This document shows positions 6,936 through 53,020 of a stretch of 56,761 nt of DNA, in pieces. A program made the position numbers and the translations under genes. The stretch lies in contig CAYTAR010000007.1 in assembly GCA_964436015.1 (NCBI GenBank), positions 1 through 56,761 of the forward strand, in the 5' to 3' direction. The number at the start of each line of letters is the position of its first letter. Positions within the stretch are counted from its first letter, which is position 1. Origin of the DNA: an uncultured Candidatus Saccharibacteria bacterium. GTDB lineage: Bacteria; Patescibacteriota; Minisyncoccia; Phycocordibacterales; GCA-2401445. The notes beneath the pieces were generated by a model that had not been told where the DNA came from, searched no databases, and saw nothing but the letters and a program-made list of their open reading frames with translations.

Positions 6936-7098
6936 GCTACTAGTATACCAAATAAAAAGGTCGGAGCGCGTTGCGCCCCGACCAGTGATGAACCATATAA
7001 GCGTCCAACTAAGAAGTGCTGAGAGGAAGGAGTTCAATCAACCCCCCGAAAAACATCCCATTGAATACTTACATGGTAAAAGTACTATAACTTATTTT

Positions 7099-32922: not shown

Positions 32923-33164
32923 ATGTCTATAACTATATTACTAAAATCAATACATGAGTTTCCTCATTCCGCCAACTATACCACATATCACGGTTAGGTA
33001 AAATACACCTCAATGATTAACAGGTATATTTACACTTTTACATTGCAAAAAGAAATTATTCTACAACATTTATCTTTTCCACAAGCCAGACTCGCACGAA
33101 GACTCCGGCTTTCGCGACTTTGTTTTATTACTCACGAAGTGATTAGAAAACAAGAAGGACCCTT

Positions 33165-33581
33165 GTGGTGATTCTCCCTACCCGCAACATAAATATAGTC
33201 GCAAAATGCTCTCGCATTTTGCTTGTTATTTTTGTGCTTAAAAAGCATAAGAGGGAGAATCGGTCACAGATAATTTTGCTGACCTGCCTTTGCCGGCAGG
33301 CAGGTGTAAAAATTTTGCGACCTGATAATGTTCATTTCTACTTTAATAATGGAGTGTAGAGAATCGGTCACGAGTTACTAAGTCTGCTCATGCACTTCGT
33401 GCATTGCGCGGACTAAGTACTCGCGACCCCGCCTCGTCTGTTTCCGCTTTGAGCAAAAACCTCAAACAGAAACATGACTGCGGCTTTCGATTCTCCACGC
33501 AAGCAAAGAAGTTTGCTTGCTCTACTCCGCACCGCAAACAAAATTACCGTATTCCTGTTCGGAATACGGTAATTTTGGCGG
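33165..33581 (-). repeat. Composite structured element trailing tRNA-Gly(TCC), carrying tRNA T-arm-derived sense and antisense blocks
   Basis: About 160 nt (33417-33581) is roughly 93% identical by eye to 47834-47991. The antisense T-arm block is at 33486-33496. Sense 3'-end copies are at 33356-33371 and 33252-33267. An inverted 17-nt tRNA 3' copy is at 33170-33186. Confidence 0.8.
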
Positions 33582-33652
33582 TGCGGGTAGGGAGAATCGA
33601 ACTCCCGTATACTGCTTGGAAGGCAGTCATTCTACCACTAAACTATACCCGC
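33582..33652 (-). tRNA. tRNA-Gly (anticodon TCC), no encoded CCA
   Basis: Cloverleaf: acceptor GCGGGTA/TACCCGC, anticodon arm ACTGC-CTTCCAA-GCAGT, T arm GGGAG-TTCGATT-CTCCC, discriminator A. Confidence 0.9.
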
Positions 33653-46505: not shown

Positions 46506-46667
46506 CCAGATCCATTTTGTATTCAGTAAGCACTGGATACCCTATTTCTATACACTAAAAACAAACGATACAGGCGAAAGCAGTGTTTCTTAGGTAAAAA
46601 TATAGTTTAAACTATAGAATAAACATTTTCGCCAGAATCTCCCTCAACTCACATTTTCTCGTCAGAA

Positions 46668-46894
46668 AATATGGTTTGGGCACCGGCTCGTTGTTGCTCG
46701 AAGCTCGCAACATACTCCGCTGGTCGCTCTCGTGCACAATCTCACTTCGTTCGCTTGTGCCCTCGGACAGAATCAAACCTTACAGGTTCAGTACCCCAAT
46801 TGGATTTTTTCTTCGCCCTTCAGGCTCAAAAAAATGCTCAATCGGGCTTCGAATCCCGGGCGAAAGCGTACCCACGCTTTCTCGCAATTTGATG
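46668..46894 (-). repeat. Structured element trailing tRNA-Pro, with an antisense Pro T-arm block and a foreign tRNA 3'-end fragment
   Basis: ttcgaatcccgg at 46848-46859 (plus strand) is antisense relative to the minus-strand tRNA. A hairpin lies at 46860-46885. A tRNA-like 3' fragment at 46756-46779 (minus sense ggtttgattctgtccgagggcaca) does not match any tRNA in the window. Confidence 0.7.
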
Positions 46895-46967
46895 TCGGAG
46901 CGCCGGGATTCGAACCCGGAGTCATCTGCTCCCAAAGCAGACATGTTAGCCGTTACACCACGCTCCG
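46895..46967 (-). tRNA. tRNA-Pro (anticodon TGG), no encoded CCA
   Basis: Acceptor CGGAGCG/CGCTCCG, anticodon arm TCTGC-TTTGGGA-GCAGA, T arm CCGGG-TTCGAAT-CCCGG. Confidence 0.9.
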
Positions 46968-47020
46968 ATACAATTCAACTACGCTAGTCTAGCATACTGA
47001 ATGCAAAACGCCAGTACTTT

Positions 47021-47044
47021 TATAAAGGACATATGTCCTTTATA
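47021..47044. promoter_or_regulatory. Perfect 24-bp palindrome tataaaggacatatgtcctttata
   Basis: It is self-complementary and abuts the yraN stop codon. The half-site ATAAAGGACAT recurs at 47555-47613 and 50649-50690. Confidence 0.6.
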
Positions 47045-47461
47045 CTACCCCACGTTTACATTTTTTATGTGACGAACCCTTGCAACTCTATTTTGAGTAT
47101 CCAAGCGAACAATTAGCGCATCTAATCTCCATTCTGTTTCATCAGAAACATTATTTTCTAGGAGATAACTCCTAATGGTGCGAGTAAGTCTATCTATTTT
47201 CTTCCTATGTATATTCTCCTCAATACTATATATGCCATCAACACTCGTTACACGTGGAACATACAGTTTTTCAGTTTTTACCTCAACAAAAACCATTATT
47301 CTCTTTTCACGTGCAACAATATCTATTTCTCCCCACTTCTTTCTATAATTTCTGGCAATAACTGAAAACCCCTTTCTGGAAAGGAAGATCTCAGCAATAT
47401 CCTCACCGATTCTCCCAAACTTCATTTTGTCGGTTTCCCGTGAAATATTATTTGTATCCAT
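47045..47461 (-). CDS. yraN: YraN (UPF0102) family endonuclease-like protein
   Basis: GRIGEDIAEIFLSRKGF...NYRKKWGEIDIVA...MVFVEVKT signature. Confidence 0.85.
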   Translation of the reverse strand: MDTNNISRETDKMKFGRIGEDIAEIFLSRKGFSVIARNYRKKWGEIDIVAREKRIMVFVEVKTEKLYVPRVTSVDGIYSIEENIHRKKIDRLTRTIRSYLLENNVSDETEWRLDALIVRLDTQNRVARVRHIKNVNVG

Positions 47462-47629
47462 ATTTATAATAATACTATACCAACCTTGTTACACATGTAA
47501 CATTGTTTCATGTGAAACACACATATTTGTGTGATTGTCAAATATATGGCTCAAAATAAGGACATTTTGTCAAAGTCGTGTTATAAAAAGACAGCTAGCC
47601 ACATGTCTTTTATTCACATATCCACTGAG

Positions 47630-47638
47630 TTATCCACA
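47630..47638 (+). promoter_or_regulatory. Perfect DnaA-box 9-mer TTATCCACA
   Basis: Exact consensus, 17 nt from the degenerate ATAAGGACAT/ATGTCTTTTAT inverted repeat. Confidence 0.35.
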
Positions 47639-47746
47639 GTTTTGTGGTTAAAAAAGAGGATAACGATGTAGAGTAGGGTACTTTTCTGGCTTTAAGGGTA
47701 ATTGTAAATTAACTTTGTTTCCCTTTATTTTATCAATACTTAGAGG

Positions 47747-47752
47747 TATAAT
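47747..47752 (+). promoter_or_regulatory. Candidate -10 box for tRNA-Gly(GCC)
   Basis: TATAAT lies 10 nt upstream of the mature tRNA 5' end. I saw no convincing -35. Confidence 0.4.
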
Positions 47753-47762
47753 TGCTTTCACT

Positions 47763-47833
47763 GCGGGTATGGTTTAGTGGTAGAACACGTCCTTGCCAAG
47801 GACGAGTCGGGGGTTCGATTCCCCCTACCCGCA
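47763..47833 (+). tRNA. tRNA-Gly (anticodon GCC), no encoded CCA
   Basis: Acceptor GCGGGTA/TACCCGC, anticodon arm CGTCC-TTGCCAA-GGACG, T arm GGGGG-TTCGATT-CCCCC. Confidence 0.92.
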
Positions 47834-48059
47834 CCGCCAAAATTACCGTATTCTTAACAGAATACGGTAATTTTGCTTGCGGTGCGGAGTAGAGCAAGCA
47901 AACTTCTTTGCTTGCGTGGGGAATCGAAAGCCGCAGTCATGTTTCTGTTTGAGGCTTTTGCTCAAACAGAAACAGACGAGGCGGGGTCGCGGAAATTTTG
48001 CGCCTGCCGGCAAAGGCAGGTCAGCAAAATTATCTGTGACCGATTCTCTACCCGCACCA
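47834..48059 (+). repeat. Structured element trailing tRNA-Gly(GCC)
   Basis: Hairpins at 47839-47874, 47894-47915, 47941-47973 and 47994-48031. The antisense T-arm block ggggaatcgaa is at 47918-47928. The conserved box gaggcggggtcgcg is at 47978-47991. The terminal sense copy gtgaccgattctctacccgcacca is at 48036-48059. Confidence 0.8.
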
Positions 48060-48136
48060 CAAAAAGTAAGTAGATAGCGAGTTATTTGGTTATAAAAAGT
48101 TATGACCGATTCTTCATATCTCCAAATACATATTTA

Positions 48137-48174
48137 AAAGCATATCTTACGCTATATCGTAAGATATGCTTTTA
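48137..48174. terminator. 38-bp hairpin/palindrome (copy 2 of the cttacg...cgtaag palindrome), a likely bidirectional terminator between convergent tRNA units
   Basis: aaaagcatatcttacg-ctatat-cgtaagatatgctttt: 16-bp arms with A4/T4 flanks. Confidence 0.6.
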
Positions 48175-48278
48175 TGATGTTAATTATAGGTTTTAAGGTA
48201 AATAGGGAAGTAGACTGTTAAAAAATACCTACTTGATTTTCCTGTACCGCCCACCAGCAATGCTGCTAGTACACTAGT

Positions 48279-48650
48279 CTTCAAATCCCGGACGAAAGCG
48301 TCCCCACGCTTTCTCGGGTACAAAATATGGCTAAAAATATAGAGTTTGTGCCCCCGCCAGGATTCGGTCACAAGTTACTGAGGATTTTGCTAGTGAGTAC
48401 ACTTCAAAATCCAAAGTACTCGCGACCCCGCCTCGCTGTCGCAGAGCGACATGCTCCGGCTTTCGAATCCTGACGCAGTGTGTGCAGACACACTGCTTCG
48501 GGAAACATGTGCCCCCGCCAGGATTCGAACCTCTCGGAAACCCACGGTTTTCCGACGGGTAAAGCCCTGCCTTCCTCCACGGGAAACCGCAGGTTTCCCG
48601 ACCCCTTCCTGTTCGAATCCTGGCGGAACACGCCTCGCTACGCTCGTCTG
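48279..48650 (-). repeat. Array of elements trailing tRNA-Arg, with three direct copies and two antisense copies of the tRNA-Arg T-arm/acceptor 3' end
   Basis: tgcccccgccaggattcg occurs at 48651-48668 (in the tRNA), 48510-48527 and 48349-48366. Antisense blocks are at 48611-48626 and 48462-48472. A copy of the Pro-type module lies at 48279-48316. Confidence 0.85.
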
Positions 48651-48722
48651 TGCCCCCGCCAGGATTCGAACCCAGAATAACGGTTCCGAAGACCGTTGTG
48701 ATATCCATTTCACCACAGGGGC
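48651..48722 (-). tRNA. tRNA-Arg (anticodon TCG), no encoded CCA
   Basis: Acceptor GCCCCTG/CGGGGGC (one G-U pair), anticodon arm ACGGT-CTTCGGA-ACCGT, T arm CTGGG-TTCGAAT-CCTGG (two G-U pairs). Confidence 0.85.
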
Positions 48723-48745
48723 GAGCTTAGACATCATACGACACA

Positions 48746-50275
48746 TTGGTCATTTTGCCAAAGGTATACTACAATTATCACGTGAATAATTCTACTGTTT
48801 CAATTGAGTTCTCCATACCAGCACCAGTCAAACATGTAGCTGAAACGTTGCAAAAAGCAGGATTTGAGGCTTTTTTAGTTGGAGGATGTGTTCGTGATCT
48901 CTTTTTGAATAAAAAACCTAAAGATTGGGATATAACAACAAATGCACGCCCGGAACAAATAACCGCCTTGTTTCCTCATACTTTTTATGAAAATGACTTC
49001 GGAACCGTTGGTGTTGTTACTGAAAACACAGAAGATGAAACACTTGCTACCATTGAAGTTACGACATATCGCCTTGAAGCGGAGTATTCAAACAACAGAC
49101 ATCCTGACATGGTCCGTTTTAGTGACACATTACAAGATGATTTAAAAAGAAGAGACTTTACCTTTAATGCACTCGCATACGATACTCAAACTAACACAAT
49201 ACATGACTACTACAACGGCATAGCCGATTTACGCTCGCAAGTGGTTCGTACCGTAGGGAACCCAACTGAGCGATTTGGGGAAGACGCACTTCGTATTATG
49301 AGGGCCGTACGGCTTGCGGTGGAGCTACGCTTTTCAATTGAACCCGAGACTGAACGTGAGATTGCAAATATGGCTCAAAACATAACTACAATTGCGATTG
49401 AGCGTATCCGAGATGAGCTTTCTCGGATCCTACTTTCGCCCAATCCACAGTACGGAATAGAGCTATTGCATAAGGTAGGAGTACTTATATACATCATTCC
49501 AGAACTTATTGAAACACGAGGAATTGAGCAGGGAGGTATACACTCATTTGATGTGTGGGAACATTTACTTAAAACACTCCAGCATTCAGCTGACAAACAG
49601 TGGCCTTTGCACATACGGCTGGCGAGCTTATTTCATGATATAGCCAAACCGGAAACACGAAGGTCTGGAGGAAAGAATAAGGAATGGACCTTTTTTGGAC
49701 ATGAGGTTGTTGGGGCACGAAAAACAAAAACTATTCTTGAACGTTTAAAGTACCCAAAAGCTATTATCACCCGTGTGGTTACCTTGGTTCGTTGGCATAT
49801 GTTTTTTTCTGATACCGAACAAATAACACTATCGGCAGTAAGAAGAATGATCGCAAACGTGGGGGAAGAGAATATATGGGACCTTATGAATGTGCGTATT
49901 TGTGACAGAATAGGGACCGGAAGACCGAAAGAAGACCCTTTCAGATTAAGAAAATATCACGCAATGATTGAGGAAGCACTTCGCGATCCTCTATCAGTTC
50001 GCATGCTTGCCTTACGCGGAGAAGATATCATTGAAATAACCAATTCAAAACCTGGTCCACACATTGGCTTAATTCTACACGCACTCCTCGAAGAGGTACT
50101 TGATAATCCTGAGAAAAACACCAAAGAAATTCTCTCAAAGAGAGCACTAGAACTCTATGCGCTACCCCAAAATATGCTTACAGAGCTTGGCGAAAAGGGG
50201 AAAATAAGGCAAAAGGAAGAAGACAGTGCTGAATCAAAGAAAATCCTTGCGAAATATAAAGTATTGAAAAAGTAG
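48746..50275 (+). CDS. cca: CCA-adding tRNA nucleotidyltransferase with an HD domain
   Basis: GGCVRD and DWDITT nucleotidyltransferase motifs, RDFTFNA, and HD (LFHDIAKP). The true start may be the GTG at 48782. Confidence 0.88.
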   Translation: MVILPKVYYNYHVNNSTVSIEFSIPAPVKHVAETLQKAGFEAFLVGGCVRDLFLNKKPKDWDITTNARPEQITALFPHTFYENDFGTVGVVTENTEDETLATIEVTTYRLEAEYSNNRHPDMVRFSDTLQDDLKRRDFTFNALAYDTQTNTIHDYYNGIADLRSQVVRTVGNPTERFGEDALRIMRAVRLAVELRFSIEPETEREIANMAQNITTIAIERIRDELSRILLSPNPQYGIELLHKVGVLIYIIPELIETRGIEQGGIHSFDVWEHLLKTLQHSADKQWPLHIRLASLFHDIAKPETRRSGGKNKEWTFFGHEVVGARKTKTILERLKYPKAIITRVVTLVRWHMFFSDTEQITLSAVRRMIANVGEENIWDLMNVRICDRIGTGRPKEDPFRLRKYHAMIEEALRDPLSVRMLALRGEDIIEITNSKPGPHIGLILHALLEEVLDNPEKNTKEILSKRALELYALPQNMLTELGEKGKIRQKEEDSAESKKILAKYKVLKK

Positions 50276-50899: not shown

Positions 50900-51667
50900 C
50901 TATGCAAGGGTAATACTTACCGGGCAATGATCAGAACCAAGGATATCATCGTGTATATTTGCCGAGGTGATACTTTCTTGCAGAGACTTACTTACAAAAA
51001 AGTAATCAATCCTCCACCCCACATTTCGTTCTCGAGCGCGAGTTTTCATATCCCAGTATGAGTATTTTTGCTCAACTAATCCATGTTTTAGCCGGAACGT
51101 ATCAATAAACCCTGCGTTCACCACCGCATCAATCCATGCACGCTCAACAGGAAGAAACCCTGTATTCTCAACATTTTCTTTTGGTCGAGCGAGGTCAATT
51201 TCAGTATGAGCTGTATTTATATCTCCGCAAAAAATTACATCAAATCCTTTTCGTTCCAACTCTTTCACATAACTTAAAAAAGCGTCATAGTAGCGTAATT
51301 TATACGCCAAACGTTCAGGTCCGCCACCTCCATTAGGAAAATATACCGTAATAAAAGCAAGCGACTCAAAGAAAAGTGTTATTTGCCTACCTTCTTGATC
51401 AAGTTCTTCAACCCCTAAACCATACTCGACCGAATCAGGCTCCATCTTTGTATATACTGCCGTTCCGCTATATCCCTTGCGTGTTTTTGATGAATTAAAA
51501 TATGCGTTGTACCCCTGTGGATGAGTGAGTTCCTCTGGAAGTTGAGTTGCTTCGGCTTTTGTCTCCTGAAGAGCTAAGATATCTGGCTGTTCATTCCAAA
51601 ACCAATCAAAACAATTCTTTTTGTGACACGCACGTATACCGTTAACATTCCATGAATACATTTTCAT
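50900..51667 (-). CDS. xth: Exodeoxyribonuclease III (AP endonuclease)
   Basis: SWNVNGIRA, LQETK, GDINTAH and SDHCPV motifs. Confidence 0.92.
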   Translation of the reverse strand: MKMYSWNVNGIRACHKKNCFDWFWNEQPDILALQETKAEATQLPEELTHPQGYNAYFNSSKTRKGYSGTAVYTKMEPDSVEYGLGVEELDQEGRQITLFFESLAFITVYFPNGGGGPERLAYKLRYYDAFLSYVKELERKGFDVIFCGDINTAHTEIDLARPKENVENTGFLPVERAWIDAVVNAGFIDTFRLKHGLVEQKYSYWDMKTRARERNVGWRIDYFFVSKSLQESITSANIHDDILGSDHCPVSITLA

Positions 51668-52102: not shown

Positions 52103-53020
52103 TTATTGTTTTCTTTTATTATGAAAATTCTTGTGTATATCTCGCAAATGCTTATCAGTAACATGAGTGTATATTTGAGTGGTTCCAATATGGGCGTGCC
52201 CCAAAAGAGCCTGTACACTTCTCAAATCAGCCCCATTGGAAAGCAGATCTGTTGCAAATGAGTGGCGCACCACATGGGGAGTAACTTTTTTTGAAATACC
52301 TGCCTTAATTGCGTAATATTTCACGATACGCTCAACAGAACGAGATGTAATACGTGACAAGGGGAGAGAATTGCTCTTTGAAACCCCAACAAACAACGCA
52401 TCACTCATATCTTTCCTTTTTTCCAAGTATGAACGAACAGCTACTTTAGCCTGAGTAGAAAGAAATACCACCCTTATTTTATCTCCTTTTCCACGAACAG
52501 AAAGTTCATCTCTTCCAAGATCAATATCTCTGTTCAATGAACATAGCTCAGAAACACGCAGGCCTGTTGAAAAAAGAAGTTCAAGTATTGCTTTATCCCT
52601 CAACGACTTAACATCCGTATCTTGCGGAGCATTGAGCAACCTCTCTAATTCATCACTCGTAATCAAATCAAGTGAACGCTCAGAAACCTTCGCGAGCTCA
52701 ATTCGCTCAGGAGGAAGTGACGCAACTCCGCGCTTCAACAAGTACTTTAAAAAAGACCGGAGCGCAATCAAATAATAATTTTGTGTCTTTCGTTTTAACA
52801 TACCCCCTCCACCATTACTACTTGGTGCAGGTTGGCGATTTAGCCACAAACGAAACTCCCTGATACATTCATCAGTAATATCTTTTGGGCTTTTGAGCTT
52901 TGTGTGCTCTAAAAATCGTTCTAGATAACGATCATAGTTGGCAACCGTTTTTAAACTACGGCCTTTCTCTATTTCCACATATTCTAAAAACTCCTGTTTG
53001 TAGCGTTTTAATTCATTCAT
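52103..53020 (-). CDS. XerC/XerD-type tyrosine site-specific recombinase
   Basis: N-terminal SAM-like domain. Catalytic residues appear in LRVSEL (R), HVVRHSFAT (HxxR) and LGHAHIGTTQIYTHV (H...Y). Confidence 0.88.
   Translation of the reverse strand: MNELKRYKQEFLEYVEIEKGRSLKTVANYDRYLERFLEHTKLKSPKDITDECIREFRLWLNRQPAPSSNGGGGMLKRKTQNYYLIALRSFLKYLLKRGVASLPPERIELAKVSERSLDLITSDELERLLNAPQDTDVKSLRDKAILELLFSTGLRVSELCSLNRDIDLGRDELSVRGKGDKIRVVFLSTQAKVAVRSYLEKRKDMSDALFVGVSKSNSLPLSRITSRSVERIVKYYAIKAGISKKVTPHVVRHSFATDLLSNGADLRSVQALLGHAHIGTTQIYTHVTDKHLRDIHKNFHNKRKQ

What the first reader, a model, noticed from the sequence alone, without database searches (positions are those of the whole stretch)
47834..48059. 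Hairpin-rich 226-nt element behind tRNA-Gly(GCC) carries an antisense copy and a terminal sense copy of the host tRNA's T-arm/3' end
The sequence directly after the tRNA discriminator is ordered as follows.
- A perfect 15-bp hairpin (47839-47874).
- A 9-bp hairpin (47894-47915).
- An 11-nt block, ggggaatcgaa (47918-47928). This is the exact reverse complement of the tRNA's own T-loop plus 4 nt of T-stem (ttcgattcccc).
- A 13-bp hairpin (47941-47973).
- A conserved box, gaggcggggtcgcg (47978-47991).
- A nested hairpin (47994-48031).
- Finally gtgac|cgattctctacccgcacca (48036-48059). This repeats the tRNA from T-loop position C56 to the acceptor 3' end and, unlike the gene itself, reads CCA after the discriminator.

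The antisense block can also pair with the terminal sense copy using only Watson-Crick and G-U pairs. Sense duplication starting in the T-loop is the classic footprint of T-loop-type integrase att sites. However, this unit is far too small to encode anything. Its antisense guide-like block is also not part of known att architecture. Candidate explanations:
- a miniature non-autonomous integrative element;
- an element that folds as single-stranded DNA to rebuild a duplex att site, as in CTX-phage-like logic;
- a structured tRNA trailer RNA that sequesters the T arm.
Basis: partly seen in the sequence, partly recalled or inferred. Interest (0 to 1): 0.75.

Follow-up and report, generated by a model that had tools for sequence, protein, structure and literature searches.

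The report
Tiny tRNA-matched cassettes behind tRNA genes
The 226-base stretch is one copy of a large, apparently undescribed family of protein-less, hairpin-built DNA cassettes that sit in the T-loop of tRNA genes of Patescibacteria (CPR bacteria), each carrying a spare tRNA 3' end and its exact reverse complement, and they look like a new kind of miniature mobile element whose mover is unknown.

Summary
All four tRNA genes in the window are followed by homologous small units. Each unit has the tRNA 3' end (S, from T-loop C56), a hairpin (L), a reverse complement of S ("anti"), a conserved structured core, and a second sense copy of S.

- **Spread.** One 26-nt core motif found 78 loci, and every named one is a Patescibacteria genome. 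The units sit 109-185 nt behind tRNAs for 14 amino acids, and once at the end of a protein gene.
- **Host matching.** The anti block follows each host tRNA, including the variable T-loop positions.
- **Structure.** The core folds as a three-way junction with strong covariation and an invariant G:U pair.
- **Turnover.** The same tRNA-Gly(GCC) is empty in some relatives and carries different variants in others. Units form mixed tandem arrays, and units specific for one tRNA sit in another tRNA's array.
- **No known match.** There is no ORF, no Rfam family, no copy on viral contigs and no paper.

My best reading is a non-autonomous cassette inserted in the T-loop. It replaces the tRNA 3' end and is moved in trans on a folded single strand. 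The mobility is well supported; the mechanism is inferred. A functional trailer RNA and an RNA-mediated route remain open.

The parts
47763..47835 (+). Host tRNA-Gly(GCC). Its last 22 nt (47814-47835, T-loop to 3' end) are sense copy S1, read here as the first segment of the unit.
   Evidence: ARAGORN and Rfam; sequence.
47838..47875 (+). Hairpin L: a 17-bp perfect stem with a 4-nt loop, forming the tip of the long S1:anti hairpin.
   Evidence: Inverted repeat I4; folds. Nearly identical in the Gly(TCC) unit and in L001.
47879..47894 (+). Antisense copy of the acceptor 3' strand plus 4 trailer nt (gcggtgcggagtagag).
   Evidence: Read from the sequence. It pairs with 47825-47838 in the minimum-energy fold.
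47894..47915 (+). 9-bp side hairpin (gcaagcaaacttctttgcttgc) that splits the antisense copy. Its sequence is conserved in type-A units of other species.
47918..47928 (+). Antisense copy of the T-loop plus 4 nt of T-stem (ggggaatcgaa).
   Evidence: Exact reverse complement of 47814-47824; 4 hits against 0.03 expected. 16 of 22 type-A copies have an 11/11 match to their own upstream tRNA.
47940..47974 (+). Variable hairpin 3: a 14-bp perfect stem.
   Evidence: Inverted repeat I20; fold. Each homologue has its own hairpin here.
47978..47991 (+). Conserved box GAGGCGGGGTCGCG. Its 3' half is the 5' strand of the terminal hairpin.
   Evidence: Conserved in alignments A1 and A2. The GGT of the box pairs with the ACC at the right end in 20 of 20 sequences.
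47985..48041 (+). Terminal hairpin closed by GGTCGCG/TGTGACC. The right end of the unit is GTGAC (48036-48040).
   Evidence: RNAalifold gives 13 pairs, 10 of them with compensatory changes. GTGACCGANTC occurs 4 times in the window against 0.06 expected.
48041..48059 (+). Terminal sense copy S2 (cgattctctacccgcacca). It is a decayed copy of a Gly 3' end with the ctccc-type T-stem seen in relatives, followed by CCA.
   Evidence: family D9. Relatives carry the ctccc T-stem.
48060..48175 (+). Relics of further units: a second right end ttatgaccgattcttc at 48100-48115 and a 20-bp perfect palindrome at 48135-48174.
   Evidence: (D8, I3).
33351..33579 (-). Type-A unit behind tRNA-Gly(TCC) (33580-33652). 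Its anti block is ggagaatcgaa, matching that tRNA's ctccc T-stem.
33160..33350 (-). Two further decayed units: the 3' part of a type-A core plus GTGAC|cgattctccc (33253-33322), and a contiguous 20-nt antisense copy (33169-33188).
48508..48649 (-). First unit behind tRNA-Arg(TCG) (48650-48722). It has a third core type, its anti block ccgccaggattcgaac matches 16/16, and it ends at an exact 24-nt copy of the tRNA 3' end.
   Evidence: (D1, I7, I9).
48347..48507 (-). Second unit behind tRNA-Arg, of type A: anti block caggattcgaa, box GAGGCGGGGTCGCG, right end GTGAC|cgaatcctggcgggggcaca.
48200..48346 (-). Decayed type-B-like unit. Its anti block ccgggatttgaa pairs with the Arg T arm through two G:T wobbles.
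   Evidence: (D3, D4).
46780..46893 (-). Type-B unit behind tRNA-Pro (46894-46967): small hairpin, anti block cccgggattcgaa, GCCCGATTGAG, variable hairpin, CCAATTGGGGTACTGAACCTGTAAGG.
46660..46779 (-). Start of a unit specific for tRNA-Arg(CCT), namely S + L + anti-acceptor, followed by type-A core remains. It sits in the tRNA-Pro array.
   Evidence: A 40-nt block is 39/40 identical to the 3' end and unit start of tRNA-Arg(CCT) in L041.

Best explanation
The stretch is one unit of a family of ORF-less mobile cassettes, defined by their fold, that live in tRNA genes of Patescibacteria.

**What a unit contains**
- S: a replacement tRNA 3' end, starting in the T-loop at about C56.
- L: a hairpin, often terminator-like.
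- anti: the reverse complement of S, sometimes split by a small conserved hairpin.
- A conserved core of two or three hairpins. The last hairpin ends exactly where the next S begins.

**How it sits in the gene.** The unit lies inside the T-loop. The tRNA keeps working with the unit's own S. The displaced original 3' end remains as the terminal sense copy and decays.

**The fold.** On the tRNA-sense strand, S pairs with anti. Together with the core this makes a three-way junction that brings the two ends of the unit together, next to a duplex with the same sequence as the target.

**Inferred mechanism.** I infer that a protein supplied in trans recognises this folded junction plus the conserved GGTTCGA context of the T-loop, and exchanges strands there. 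Candidates are a host or helper recombinase or nuclease. This would give insertion, tandem arrays and excision. The fold could form on single-stranded DNA, for example DNA taken up by the competence system, or at a replication fork.

**Shown:**
- the anatomy;
- matching of anti to the host tRNA;
- covariation in the fold;
- presence/absence polymorphism;
- mixed arrays;
- movement of whole S+L+anti modules.

**Inferred:**
- the crossover point;
- the single-stranded intermediate;
- the trans-acting enzyme;
- how the antisense block is renewed.
For: **Ubiquity and specificity**
- All 4 tRNAs of the window carry units.
- The type-B core motif found 78 genome loci and none on viral contigs.
- The motif lies 109-185 nt behind a same-strand tRNA for 14 amino acids.
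- About 40 type-A copies occur in the same loci.

**Host matching**
- Type-B anti against the upstream tRNA gives 719 Watson-Crick pairs out of 840 cells.
- Within the T-stem, 73% of cells are Watson-Crick against 48% in permuted controls. Variable T-loop positions covary.
- For type A, 16 of 22 copies match 11/11.
- The window's Gly tRNA has a ggggg/ccccc T-stem with anti gggg. L001 and eight metagenome loci have gggag/ctccc with anti ggag.

**Fold**
- z = -15 for the focal element.
- Type-B three-way junction: 91% of cells paired against 77% shuffled; covariation 0.378 against 0.133 (0 of 500 shuffles); slid controls at most 0.10.
- Type-A terminal hairpin: 10 of 13 pairs have compensatory changes.
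- G:T outnumbers A:C 91 to 20 in the helices, so the tRNA-sense strand is the folded one.

**Mobility**
- tRNA-Gly(GCC) with the same 49-nt 5' sequence is empty in L082 and L088. It is filled with different variants in 8 loci.
- L002 has tRNA-Gly and tRNA-Arg only 34 nt apart.
- tRNA-Arg carries different core types in the window and in L001.
- Cores 96-100% identical sit behind different tRNAs of one genome, and also in different genomes.
- One unit lies at a protein-gene 3' end, where both copies encode SKAY-stop (L067).

**Unit definition**
- In two arrays, a foreign S matches the anti block after it, not the one before it.
- The direct repeat ends at the tRNA 3' end.
- Invaded tRNAs have normal stems.

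**No coding capacity and no nearby mover**
- The window encodes no transposase, reverse transcriptase or HUH enzyme. It has only a syntenic Xer-like recombinase, plus ComEC and type IV pilus genes.
Against: - No recombinase, nuclease or helper has been linked to the units.
- No circle, excision junction or autonomous version carrying an ORF was seen.
- The empty and filled alleles come from different species. The exact insertion point, and which sense copy is new, therefore cannot be read directly.
- Near-identical cores within one genome could come from gene conversion rather than new insertions.
- The core is conserved base for base across many species. It holds an invariant G:U pair, GAAA loops and tandem G-A motifs. 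That is more typical of a functional RNA than of a recombination site.
- The model does not by itself explain how anti and S get matched to a new tRNA.
- Most tRNAs in these loci carry some unit. Such prevalence could mean the host uses them.
Confidence: 0.45

Rival explanations
1. The unit is mainly a functional RNA. It would be co-transcribed with the tRNA or cut from its trailer. The antisense block would pair with the tRNA 3' half, or with the terminal sense copy to close a three-way junction. The RNA would then act on tRNA maturation, stability or decoying, or it would be a small ribozyme or protein-binding RNA. Its spread to many tRNAs would be secondary.
For: - Core sequence is invariant over 33 alignment columns in 40 copies from many species.
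- One G:U pair is invariant in 39 of 40 copies.
- P3 is 100% paired, with 39 double changes.
- Hairpins are capped by GAAA or by GAG...CGAA motifs.
- G:T exceeds A:C on the tRNA-sense strand.
- The L hairpin of the focal unit has no T-run after it, so read-through from the tRNA promoter is likely.
- The antisense change A to G in the window keeps pairing with both sense copies.
- 60 of 163 tRNAs in the sampled loci clearly carry a unit and only 18 clearly lack one.
Against: - No Rfam family matches, even at E = 10.
- The terminal sense copy is decayed or shortened in more than half of the copies. It pairs with anti less well than the tRNA copy does: 65% against 86% Watson-Crick.
- Many L hairpins look like full terminators, which would stop transcription before the core.
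- A unit sits at a protein-gene end.
- Relatives with the same tRNA do without it.
- Arrays contain units for foreign tRNAs.
Confidence: 0.25
2. The units spread through an RNA copy. The transcript would end in the sense copy, which pairs with the antisense block like an acceptor/T minihelix. It would be trimmed and given CCA by the tRNA enzymes. It would then be reverse-transcribed and recombined into the matching tRNA gene. This resembles Neurospora retroplasmids or tRNA-derived retroposons (comparison from my own knowledge).
For: - 13 tRNA/downstream-copy pairs have CCA only in the downstream copy. None shows the reverse.
- CCA follows 17 of 57 downstream copies, against 19 of 151 tRNA genes overall.
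- The focal S2 reads CCA while the gene reads CCG.
- The direct repeat stops at the tRNA 3' end.
- The fold is RNA-like.
Against: - No reverse transcriptase is encoded in the window or seen recurrently in about 500 kb of loci.
- The antisense block copies genomic trailer bases (ccgc), not CCA.
- In arrays the sense copy belongs with the antisense block after it, so the unit does not end in its own matching sense copy.
- The CCA excess can also be explained if downstream copies are native gene ends.
Confidence: 0.1
3. No dedicated enzyme is involved. An insertion flanked by the whole tRNA on one side and a copy of its 3' end on the other can enter uninvaded alleles by RecA recombination after natural transformation. 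The antisense arm grows and is kept matched in place by template switching across the hairpin (quasi-palindrome correction).
For: - ComEC and a type IV pilus system are encoded in the window.
- tRNA sequences are shared across species. The same 49-mer occurred in 10 metagenome loci.
- The inverted repeat runs without a break from L through the locus-specific spacer into the acceptor.
- L089 holds a new and an old antisense block side by side.
- Differences between anti and S are mostly transitions that keep G:T pairs.
Against: - This does not explain the base-for-base conservation of the core and its covarying junction.
- It does not explain the precise unit boundaries at T54-C56.
- It does not explain the first arrival at new tRNAs or at a protein gene.
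- The 20-nt right arm is short for RecA-dependent exchange.
Confidence: 0.1
4. The units are scars of ordinary prophages or integrative elements that used a T-loop att site. What remains would be the two ends after internal deletion.
For: Direct repeats of the tRNA 3' end starting in the T-loop are the usual footprint of such elements (own knowledge).
Against: - About 120 copies are all 110-250 nt long, with the same ordered modules. None carries genes.
- A host-matched antisense block and a covarying junction are not parts of att scars.
- No copy was found on viral contigs.
Confidence: 0.03

Closest known systems
Phage, ICE and genomic-island integration into tRNA genes at the T-loop by tyrosine integrases (own knowledge; Williams 2002 classification)
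   Same: - The target is a tRNA gene.
- The direct repeat runs from the T-loop to the tRNA 3' end.
- The element-side copy keeps the tRNA intact.
- Tandem arrays of repeats occur.
   Different: - The unit has no integrase or any other gene and is only 110-250 nt long.
- Every unit carries a reverse complement of the att segment and a conserved three-way-junction core.
- One family serves at least 14 tRNA identities.
Folded single-strand recombination sites: integron attC and CTX-phage attP(+) (own knowledge)
   Same: - A site defined by structure on one strand, rebuilt by intrastrand pairing.
- The antisense arm lies just inside one end.
- The crossover is at the foot of a hairpin.
- Cassettes form tandem arrays.
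- No enzyme is encoded in the cassette or small element.
   Different: - The target is a tRNA T-loop, not attI or dif.
- The paired arms copy the target gene itself and differ per tRNA.
- The cassettes carry no ORF.
- No IntI was seen, and Xer involvement is untested.
Non-autonomous bacterial elements (MITEs, REP/BIME, and CIMEs derived from ICEs)
   Same: - Small, with no ORF.
- Rich in hairpins.
- Many copies per genome.
- Presumably moved in trans.
   Different: - There are no terminal inverted repeats and no short fixed target duplication.
- The target is strictly a tRNA T-loop.
- Each copy restores its target gene and carries a segment complementary to it.
Mobile elements that carry guides: IS110 bridge RNA, IS200/IS605 omega RNA, group II intron EBS (own knowledge)
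   Same: - A structured non-coding part of the element holds a segment complementary to the target.
- The guide differs between copies while the scaffold is conserved.
   Different: - No recombinase, TnpB or reverse transcriptase gene is present.
- A 20-nt target duplication is not made by those elements.
- The scaffold matches no Rfam family.
- The guide is complementary to a sequence that the element also carries in sense.
Neurospora mitochondrial retroplasmids and tRNA-derived retroposons (own knowledge)
   Same: A tRNA-like 3' end with CCA written into some DNA copies.
   Different: - No reverse transcriptase was found.
- The antisense block copies genomic trailer, not CCA.
- The unit boundaries do not fit a transcript that ends in its own sense copy.

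Membership tests
tRNA-integrating element with tyrosine integrase | The element encodes its own integrase. | tested here: not met
   The units are 110-250 nt with no ORF. About 120 copies were inspected. The only recombinase in the window is a syntenic Xer-like gene 4 kb away, and it is also present next to empty sites.
tRNA-integrating element with tyrosine integrase | A direct repeat of the tRNA 3' part flanks the element, with the proximal copy completing a working tRNA. | tested here: met
   Repeats start at T54-C56 and end at position 74-76. Invaded tRNAs have normal acceptor and T stems.
Integron cassette / attC | An imperfect hairpin folded from one strand, with recombination at its foot, and cassettes in arrays. 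| tested here: inconclusive
   The strand-specific fold, the unit boundary at the foot of the last hairpin and the arrays are all seen. Recombination itself was not observed.
Integron cassette / attC | An IntI integrase with attI and a promoter; cassettes carry ORFs; R-box GTTRRRY. | tested here: not met
   No IntI or attI was found in the window or loci. The cassettes have no ORF. The junction reads GGTTCGA, which does not fit GTTRRRY.
Xer-exploiting element (IMEX, CTX-type) | Integration at the chromosomal dif site by XerC/D. | tested here: not met
   The targets are tRNA T-loops and one gene end, not dif. Whether the Xer-like enzyme acts on them is not testable with these tools.
MITE | Terminal inverted repeats and a short fixed target-site duplication. 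| tested here: not met
   The two ends of the unit are not inverted repeats of each other. The duplication is about 20 nt or more and ends at the tRNA 3' end.
IS110-type element with bridge RNA | A DEDD/serine recombinase gene plus an RNA with two internal guide loops. | tested here: not met
   No such ORF is in the units, the window or the recurrent ORF clusters. The fold is a three-way junction, not two internal loops.
Known RNA families (self-cleaving ribozymes, group I/II introns, T-box, tmRNA and others) | A match to the family's covariance model. | tested here: not met
   With Rfam 15, only tRNAs reached the gathering score in the window and in five loci. Nothing credible appeared at E up to 10 over 46600-48800.
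Retroelement | A reverse transcriptase, and copies carrying post-transcriptional marks. | tested here: inconclusive
   No reverse transcriptase was found. There is a CCA excess in downstream copies, 13 to 0.

The most novel reading that the evidence does not exclude
The units are a guide-bearing mobile system that retargets itself and encodes no protein. The folded single strand (RNA or DNA) would use its antisense arm to find the T arm of a tRNA gene. It would present both of its ends to a host enzyme at a conserved three-way junction. The antisense and sense arms would be rewritten from each new target, so that one scaffold can colonise any tRNA. That would be a natural, programmable insertion device built from nucleic-acid structure alone.
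Probability: 0.2. Interest if true: 0.95.

Novelty: new variant of a known kind. Interest (0 to 1): 0.8.

Why it matters
If these are mobile cassettes, they show a way of targeting tRNA genes that needs no element-encoded protein. The cassette repairs its target with a carried copy and marks the site with a matching antisense arm. This is a design seen neither in att-site elements nor in MITEs.

They occupy a large share of the tRNA genes in a major, little-studied bacterial radiation. They therefore affect tRNA gene annotation, tRNA transcription and termination, and genome rearrangement in that group.

The base-for-base conserved junction with a free choice of flanking helix is a ready candidate for finding a new structure-specific recombinase, nuclease or RNA-binding partner. 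It might also serve as a programmable insertion tool.

If instead the RNA is functional, it would be a new tRNA-linked RNA class with a built-in tRNA-specific guide.

Tried and rejected
- **Rfam.** Searches at the gathering score and at E up to 10 found nothing but tRNAs.
- **Known RNA motifs by eye.** I compared the junction strands with hammerhead, group I and bulge-helix-bulge (BHB) intron readings. The junction strands (AAG, GUACUG, none) do not fit a hammerhead. The size is too small for self-splicing introns. The terminal copy is often dead, so splicing cannot be required.
- **Antisense block as a leftover of the tRNA 5' half.** Rejected. Where the tRNA stem has G:U pairs (tRNA-Arg T-stem ctggg/cctgg), the block is the Watson-Crick complement ccagg.
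- **Viral origin.** Three scans of viral contigs with type-A and type-B motifs gave only chance hits inside ORFs.
- **A mover gene nearby.** Thirty-two window ORFs and clusters of 531 ORFs from the loci were examined. They were housekeeping genes only, except for an HTH/LAGLIDADG-like ORF upstream of some tRNAs. That ORF is absent from the window.
- **Simple staggered-cut target duplication.** This does not explain the antisense arm or the foreign units in arrays.
- **Hairpin L as the tRNA's native terminator.** Downstream folding energies of tRNAs with and without units overlap, so the test was undecided.
- **Extra stem mismatches in invaded tRNAs.** None were found.
- **Exact-protein contig look-up for the UPF0102 gene.** Nothing was found.
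- **Literature.** Seven full-text searches, including the core sequences as words, found no description. One further query was rejected for syntax.
Full report
**1.

tRNA-Gly(GCC) lies at 47763-47835. The 226 nt after it contain, in order:
- a perfect 17-bp hairpin (47838-47875);
- a 9-bp hairpin (47894-47915);
- ggggaatcgaa (47918-47928), the exact reverse complement of the tRNA's T-loop plus four T-stem bases;
- a perfect 14-bp hairpin (47940-47974);
- the box gaggcggggtcgcg (47978-47991);
- a long terminal hairpin;
- gtgac followed by cgattctctacccgcacca (48036-48059).

The pattern GGRGAATCGAA occurs four times in the window, only at the two Gly tRNAs and in their two trailers, against 0.03 expected.

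The antisense copy therefore spans T54 to beyond the tRNA end and is interrupted by the 9-bp hairpin.

Folded as RNA or as DNA, the stretch from the T-loop to the terminal copy is about 15 standard deviations more stable than shuffled sequence. In the minimum-energy fold the tRNA 3' part pairs with the antisense copy in one Y-shaped hairpin.

**2. The element is not alone in the window.**

Every tRNA in the window has the same kind of trailer.
- **tRNA-Gly(TCC)** (33580-33652, minus strand) has a near-identical unit whose antisense block reads ggagaatcgaa, matching its own ctccc T-stem. Two further decayed units follow it.
- **tRNA-Arg** (48650-48722, minus strand) has two tandem units. Their antisense blocks are ccgccaggattcgaac (16/16 match) and caggattcgaa. 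Each unit ends in a copy of the Arg 3' end. A third, decayed unit follows.
- **tRNA-Pro** (46894-46967, minus strand) has a unit with a different core, which I call type B. Its antisense block is cccgggattcgaa.

The 815 nt between tRNA-Gly(GCC) and tRNA-Arg consist entirely of such units and their relics.

**3. Organism and context.**

The window is ordinary chromosome of a CPR bacterium.
- The CCA-adding enzyme next to tRNA-Arg is 76% identical to that of a Candidatus Paceibacterota MAG. Its other best hits are Parcubacteria/Minisyncoccia.
- The genes include ComEC, RNase H, RecJ, PGK, TIM, type IV pilus genes, NusA, trigger factor, ClpP, RNase Y, KsgA, UvrD, MscS, Xth, a Xer-like recombinase, a NYN protein and PNPase.
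- No transposase, reverse transcriptase or HUH enzyme is present.

**4. A family found across Patescibacteria.**

The type-B core CCAATTGGGGTACTGNNCCTGTAAGG was found exactly in 78 stretches of representative genomes. All named ones are Patescibacteria: Paceibacterota, Kaiser-, Nomura- and Zambryskibacteria, and MAGs labelled Saccharibacteria. It was found in no viral contig.

In more than 60 cases the motif ends 109-185 nt after a same-strand tRNA. The hosts are tRNAs for Arg, Pro, His, Glu, Gly, Ser, Trp, Val, Leu, Asp, Cys, Lys, Met and Thr.

In one case (L067) the unit sits at the 3' end of a protein gene whose last codons contain GGTTCGAA. There both copies encode Ser-Lys-Ala-Tyr-stop.

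A profile of the window's type-A units, the kind in the finding, found about 40 more copies in the same loci. They were often in arrays with type B. Other right-end types also exist (GAGAGTGAC|CGA and TTCCTGAC|CGA).

**5. The antisense block is matched to each host.**

- **Type B.** The 12 nt before GCCCGATTGAG pair with the upstream tRNA in 719 Watson-Crick and 32 G:T cells out of 840. Within the T-stem, 73% of cells are Watson-Crick against 48% when hosts are permuted. The variable T-loop positions covary: TTCAAGT with ACTTGAA, TTCGAGT with ACTCGAA, and so on.
- **Type A.** 16 of 22 copies have a perfect 11/11 complement 87-272 nt upstream.
- **Origin of the block.** It is a true complement of the 3' strand, not a copy of the tRNA's 5' strand. 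Where tRNA-Arg has two G:U pairs in its T-stem, the block is ccagg.
- **Three-way change.** The window's tRNA-Gly(GCC) has a ggggg/ccccc T-stem with anti gggg. The same tRNA in L001 and in eight metagenome loci has gggag/ctccc with anti ggag. The terminal copy in the window keeps the ctc-type sequence.
- **L089.** This tRNA also has ccccc, and its unit carries a new block GGGGAATCG directly in front of the old GGAGAATCGAA. That looks like templated patching rather than point mutation.

**6. The core is a conserved, covarying fold on the tRNA-sense strand.**

In 40 type-B copies the following three-way junction is supported:
- P1: antisense block with the terminal sense copy;
- P2: GCCCGATTG with CAATTGGG(G), continued by a variable hairpin;
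- P3: xyCCT-GTA-AGGy'x'.

The measures are as follows.

| Measure | Observed | Control |
|---|---|---|
| Cells paired | 91% | 77% shuffled |
| Covariation score | 0.378 | 0.133 shuffled (0 of 500 reach it); slid controls at most 0.10 |
| P3 | 100% paired, 39 double changes | - |
| One P2 pair | G:U in 39 of 40 copies | - |

Thirty-three alignment columns are invariant.

For type A, the terminal hairpin has 13 predicted pairs, 10 of them with compensatory changes. Its closing GGT/ACC is invariant, and the last C is C56 of the terminal copy.

Across helices, G:T outnumbers A:C by 91 to 20. The strand that folds is therefore the tRNA-sense strand, as RNA or as single-stranded DNA. Hairpin tips are GAAA or GAGC-GNA-GCGAA. 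These tip sequences are known to be stable in RNA and, as d(GCGAAGC), in DNA (own knowledge).

**7. The units turn over.**

I scanned metagenomes with the first 49 nt of the window's tRNA-Gly(GCC) and obtained ten loci.
- Two are empty (L082, L088).
- Eight carry different type-A variants.
- The L hairpins of the filled loci are unrelated to one another in sequence.

Further evidence of turnover:
- In L002, the relative with 65% identity in the CCA enzyme, tRNA-Gly and tRNA-Arg are 34 nt apart with no unit. The same assembly nevertheless has units elsewhere.
- tRNA-Arg carries a third-type unit plus a type-A unit in the window, but a type-B unit retargeted to Arg in L001.
- Cores 96-100% identical, variable hairpin included, sit behind different tRNAs of the same genome with different antisense blocks. 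Examples are Arg-CCT and Lys-CTT; Val and Gly; Glu and Ser. Identical cores also occur in different assemblies. This means either recent spread or gene conversion.

**8. What the unit is.**

Two arrays decide which sense copy belongs to which antisense block.
- In L001, the middle sense copy of the tRNA-Pro array is the 3' end of another tRNA (ttcaagtcctctctcgcgcaca). The antisense blocks after it (tgtgcgcgag, ggacttgaa) match it.
- In the window, the copy after the tRNA-Pro unit plus the next 40 nt is 39/40 identical to the 3' end, L hairpin and anti-acceptor block of the tRNA-Arg(CCT) unit of L041.

So S, L and anti travel together. The unit is [S - L - anti - core], beginning at T54-C56 and ending at the foot of the last hairpin (..AAGGy'x' or ..GTGAC).

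Three more observations fit this definition:
- Identity between the two sense copies falls to background after position 74-76, the tRNA end.
- The tRNAs in front of units have normal stems.
- In a unit read this way, the S:anti hairpin (capped by L), P2 and P3 form a three-way junction that is open exactly between the unit's two ends. The fold brings both junctions together beside a duplex with the sequence of the target.

**9. Most likely mechanism, and its limits.**

The anatomy is what one expects if a folded single strand recombines with a duplex target inside the stem. That would give a hybrid site, then the loop, then the antisense arm just inside one end, then the other hybrid site at the far end, and tandem arrays. 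This is the logic of CTX-phage attP(+) and of integron attC (own knowledge).

Because the units encode nothing and the core is conserved across many species, the enzyme should be supplied in trans. It should also be conserved in the phylum, or carried by a helper I did not see. The window offers only a syntenic Xer-like recombinase and a DNA-uptake system that delivers single strands. Neither is linked to the units by any test here.

**Shown:**
- the structure;
- host matching;
- covariation;
- polymorphism;
- modular movement.

**Inferred:**
- insertion in the T-loop, rather than after the tRNA;
- the single-stranded intermediate;
- the enzyme;
- renewal of the antisense arm, possibly by template switching across the hairpin.

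**10. Rivals.**

- **A functional RNA is a serious alternative.** In favour are the invariant core, the conserved G:U pair, the GNRA loops and probable read-through in the focal unit. Against it are decay of the terminal copy, terminator-like L hairpins, empty alleles, foreign units in arrays and the insertion at a protein gene.
- **An RNA-mediated route** is suggested by one asymmetry. CCA follows the discriminator only in the downstream copy in 13 pairs and never only in the tRNA gene. However, no reverse transcriptase was found, and the antisense arm copies genomic trailer, not CCA.
- **Spread by transformation and homologous recombination with in-place palindrome growth** explains some details but not the conserved junction.
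- **Scars of ordinary prophages** are excluded in practice by uniform size, order and lack of genes in about 120 copies.

**11. Comparison with known systems.**

The units share the T-loop-to-3'-end repeat with integrase-borne tRNA insertions. They share the strand-specific folded site and arrays with attC and CTX attP. They share the lack of genes with MITEs and CIMEs. They share a target-complementary segment on a conserved scaffold with bridge-RNA, omega-RNA and group II elements.

They fail a defining feature of each:
- no integrase or IntI;
- no dif target;
- no terminal inverted repeats;
- no recombinase, TnpB or reverse transcriptase;
- no Rfam model match.

Seven full-text searches, including the core sequences as words, found no description. 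Papers outside the searched library cannot be ruled out.

**12. Verdict.**

The finding is real, general and apparently undescribed. I classify it as a new variant of a known kind: a non-autonomous, site-specific integrative element. There is a fair chance that the way it works is new. I rate interest at 0.8.

Noticed in passing
L004 2062-2742, L011 3822-4505, L030 3074-3754, L032 4465-5154, L045 1797-2465, and six more loci: A roughly 225-aa ORF has an N-terminal HTH and a LAGLIDADG-like GLxLYWxEGxK...SNSDP region. It ends 3-40 nt before a same-strand tRNA gene, and in one case overlaps it. It occurs in 11 loci, five of them before tRNA-Gly(GCC). It looks like a free-standing homing-endonuclease-type gene tied to tRNA genes. 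It is absent from the window.
   Followed up: partly
window 48003-48023 and 33287-33307; L001 4283-4304; L056, L057, L080: A 20-24-nt GC-rich palindrome (CCTGCCTGCCGGCAGGCAGG, or gcctgccggcaaaggcaggt in the window) is inserted at different positions inside units. It even splits the conserved boxes. It is probably a separate tiny mobile palindrome.
   Followed up: no
151 tRNA genes in the window and L001-L081: Nearly all tRNA genes encode C, mostly CA, after the discriminator, but only 13% encode CCA. Downstream sense copies read CCA in 30%. In 13 pairs CCA is only in the downstream copy, and in none is it only in the tRNA gene.
   Followed up: partly
L053 (oriented minus, about 1-160) and L068 (oriented minus, about 2560-2680): Two type-B units have an upstream partner GGTTCGAGCGTGGTTGTATAGAYACACA, conserved in two assemblies. 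It is not a tRNA by ARAGORN or Rfam, so the nature of this target is unknown.
   Followed up: partly
L067 about 6990-7090: A type-B unit is inserted at the 3' end of a protein-coding gene (...W G S K A Y stop). The last five codons are duplicated, with a synonymous tac/tat difference, and the antisense arm is only 9 nt. This is a natural off-target event that could fix the insertion geometry if an empty orthologue were found.
   Followed up: no
window 48746-50275, 50900-51667, 52103-53020; L001; L002: The synteny tRNA-Pro / UPF0102 / tRNA-Gly / tRNA-Arg / CCA-adding enzyme / Xth-like nuclease / Xer-like recombinase / S15 / NYN / PNPase is conserved in relatives. tRNA-Arg is inverted in the window and L001 relative to L002.
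   Followed up: partly
window 48135-48174: A perfect 20-bp palindrome with no loop (taaaagcatatcttacgcta|tatcgtaagatatgctttta) lies between the two unit arrays. It is flagged as terminator-like on the minus strand.
   Followed up: no
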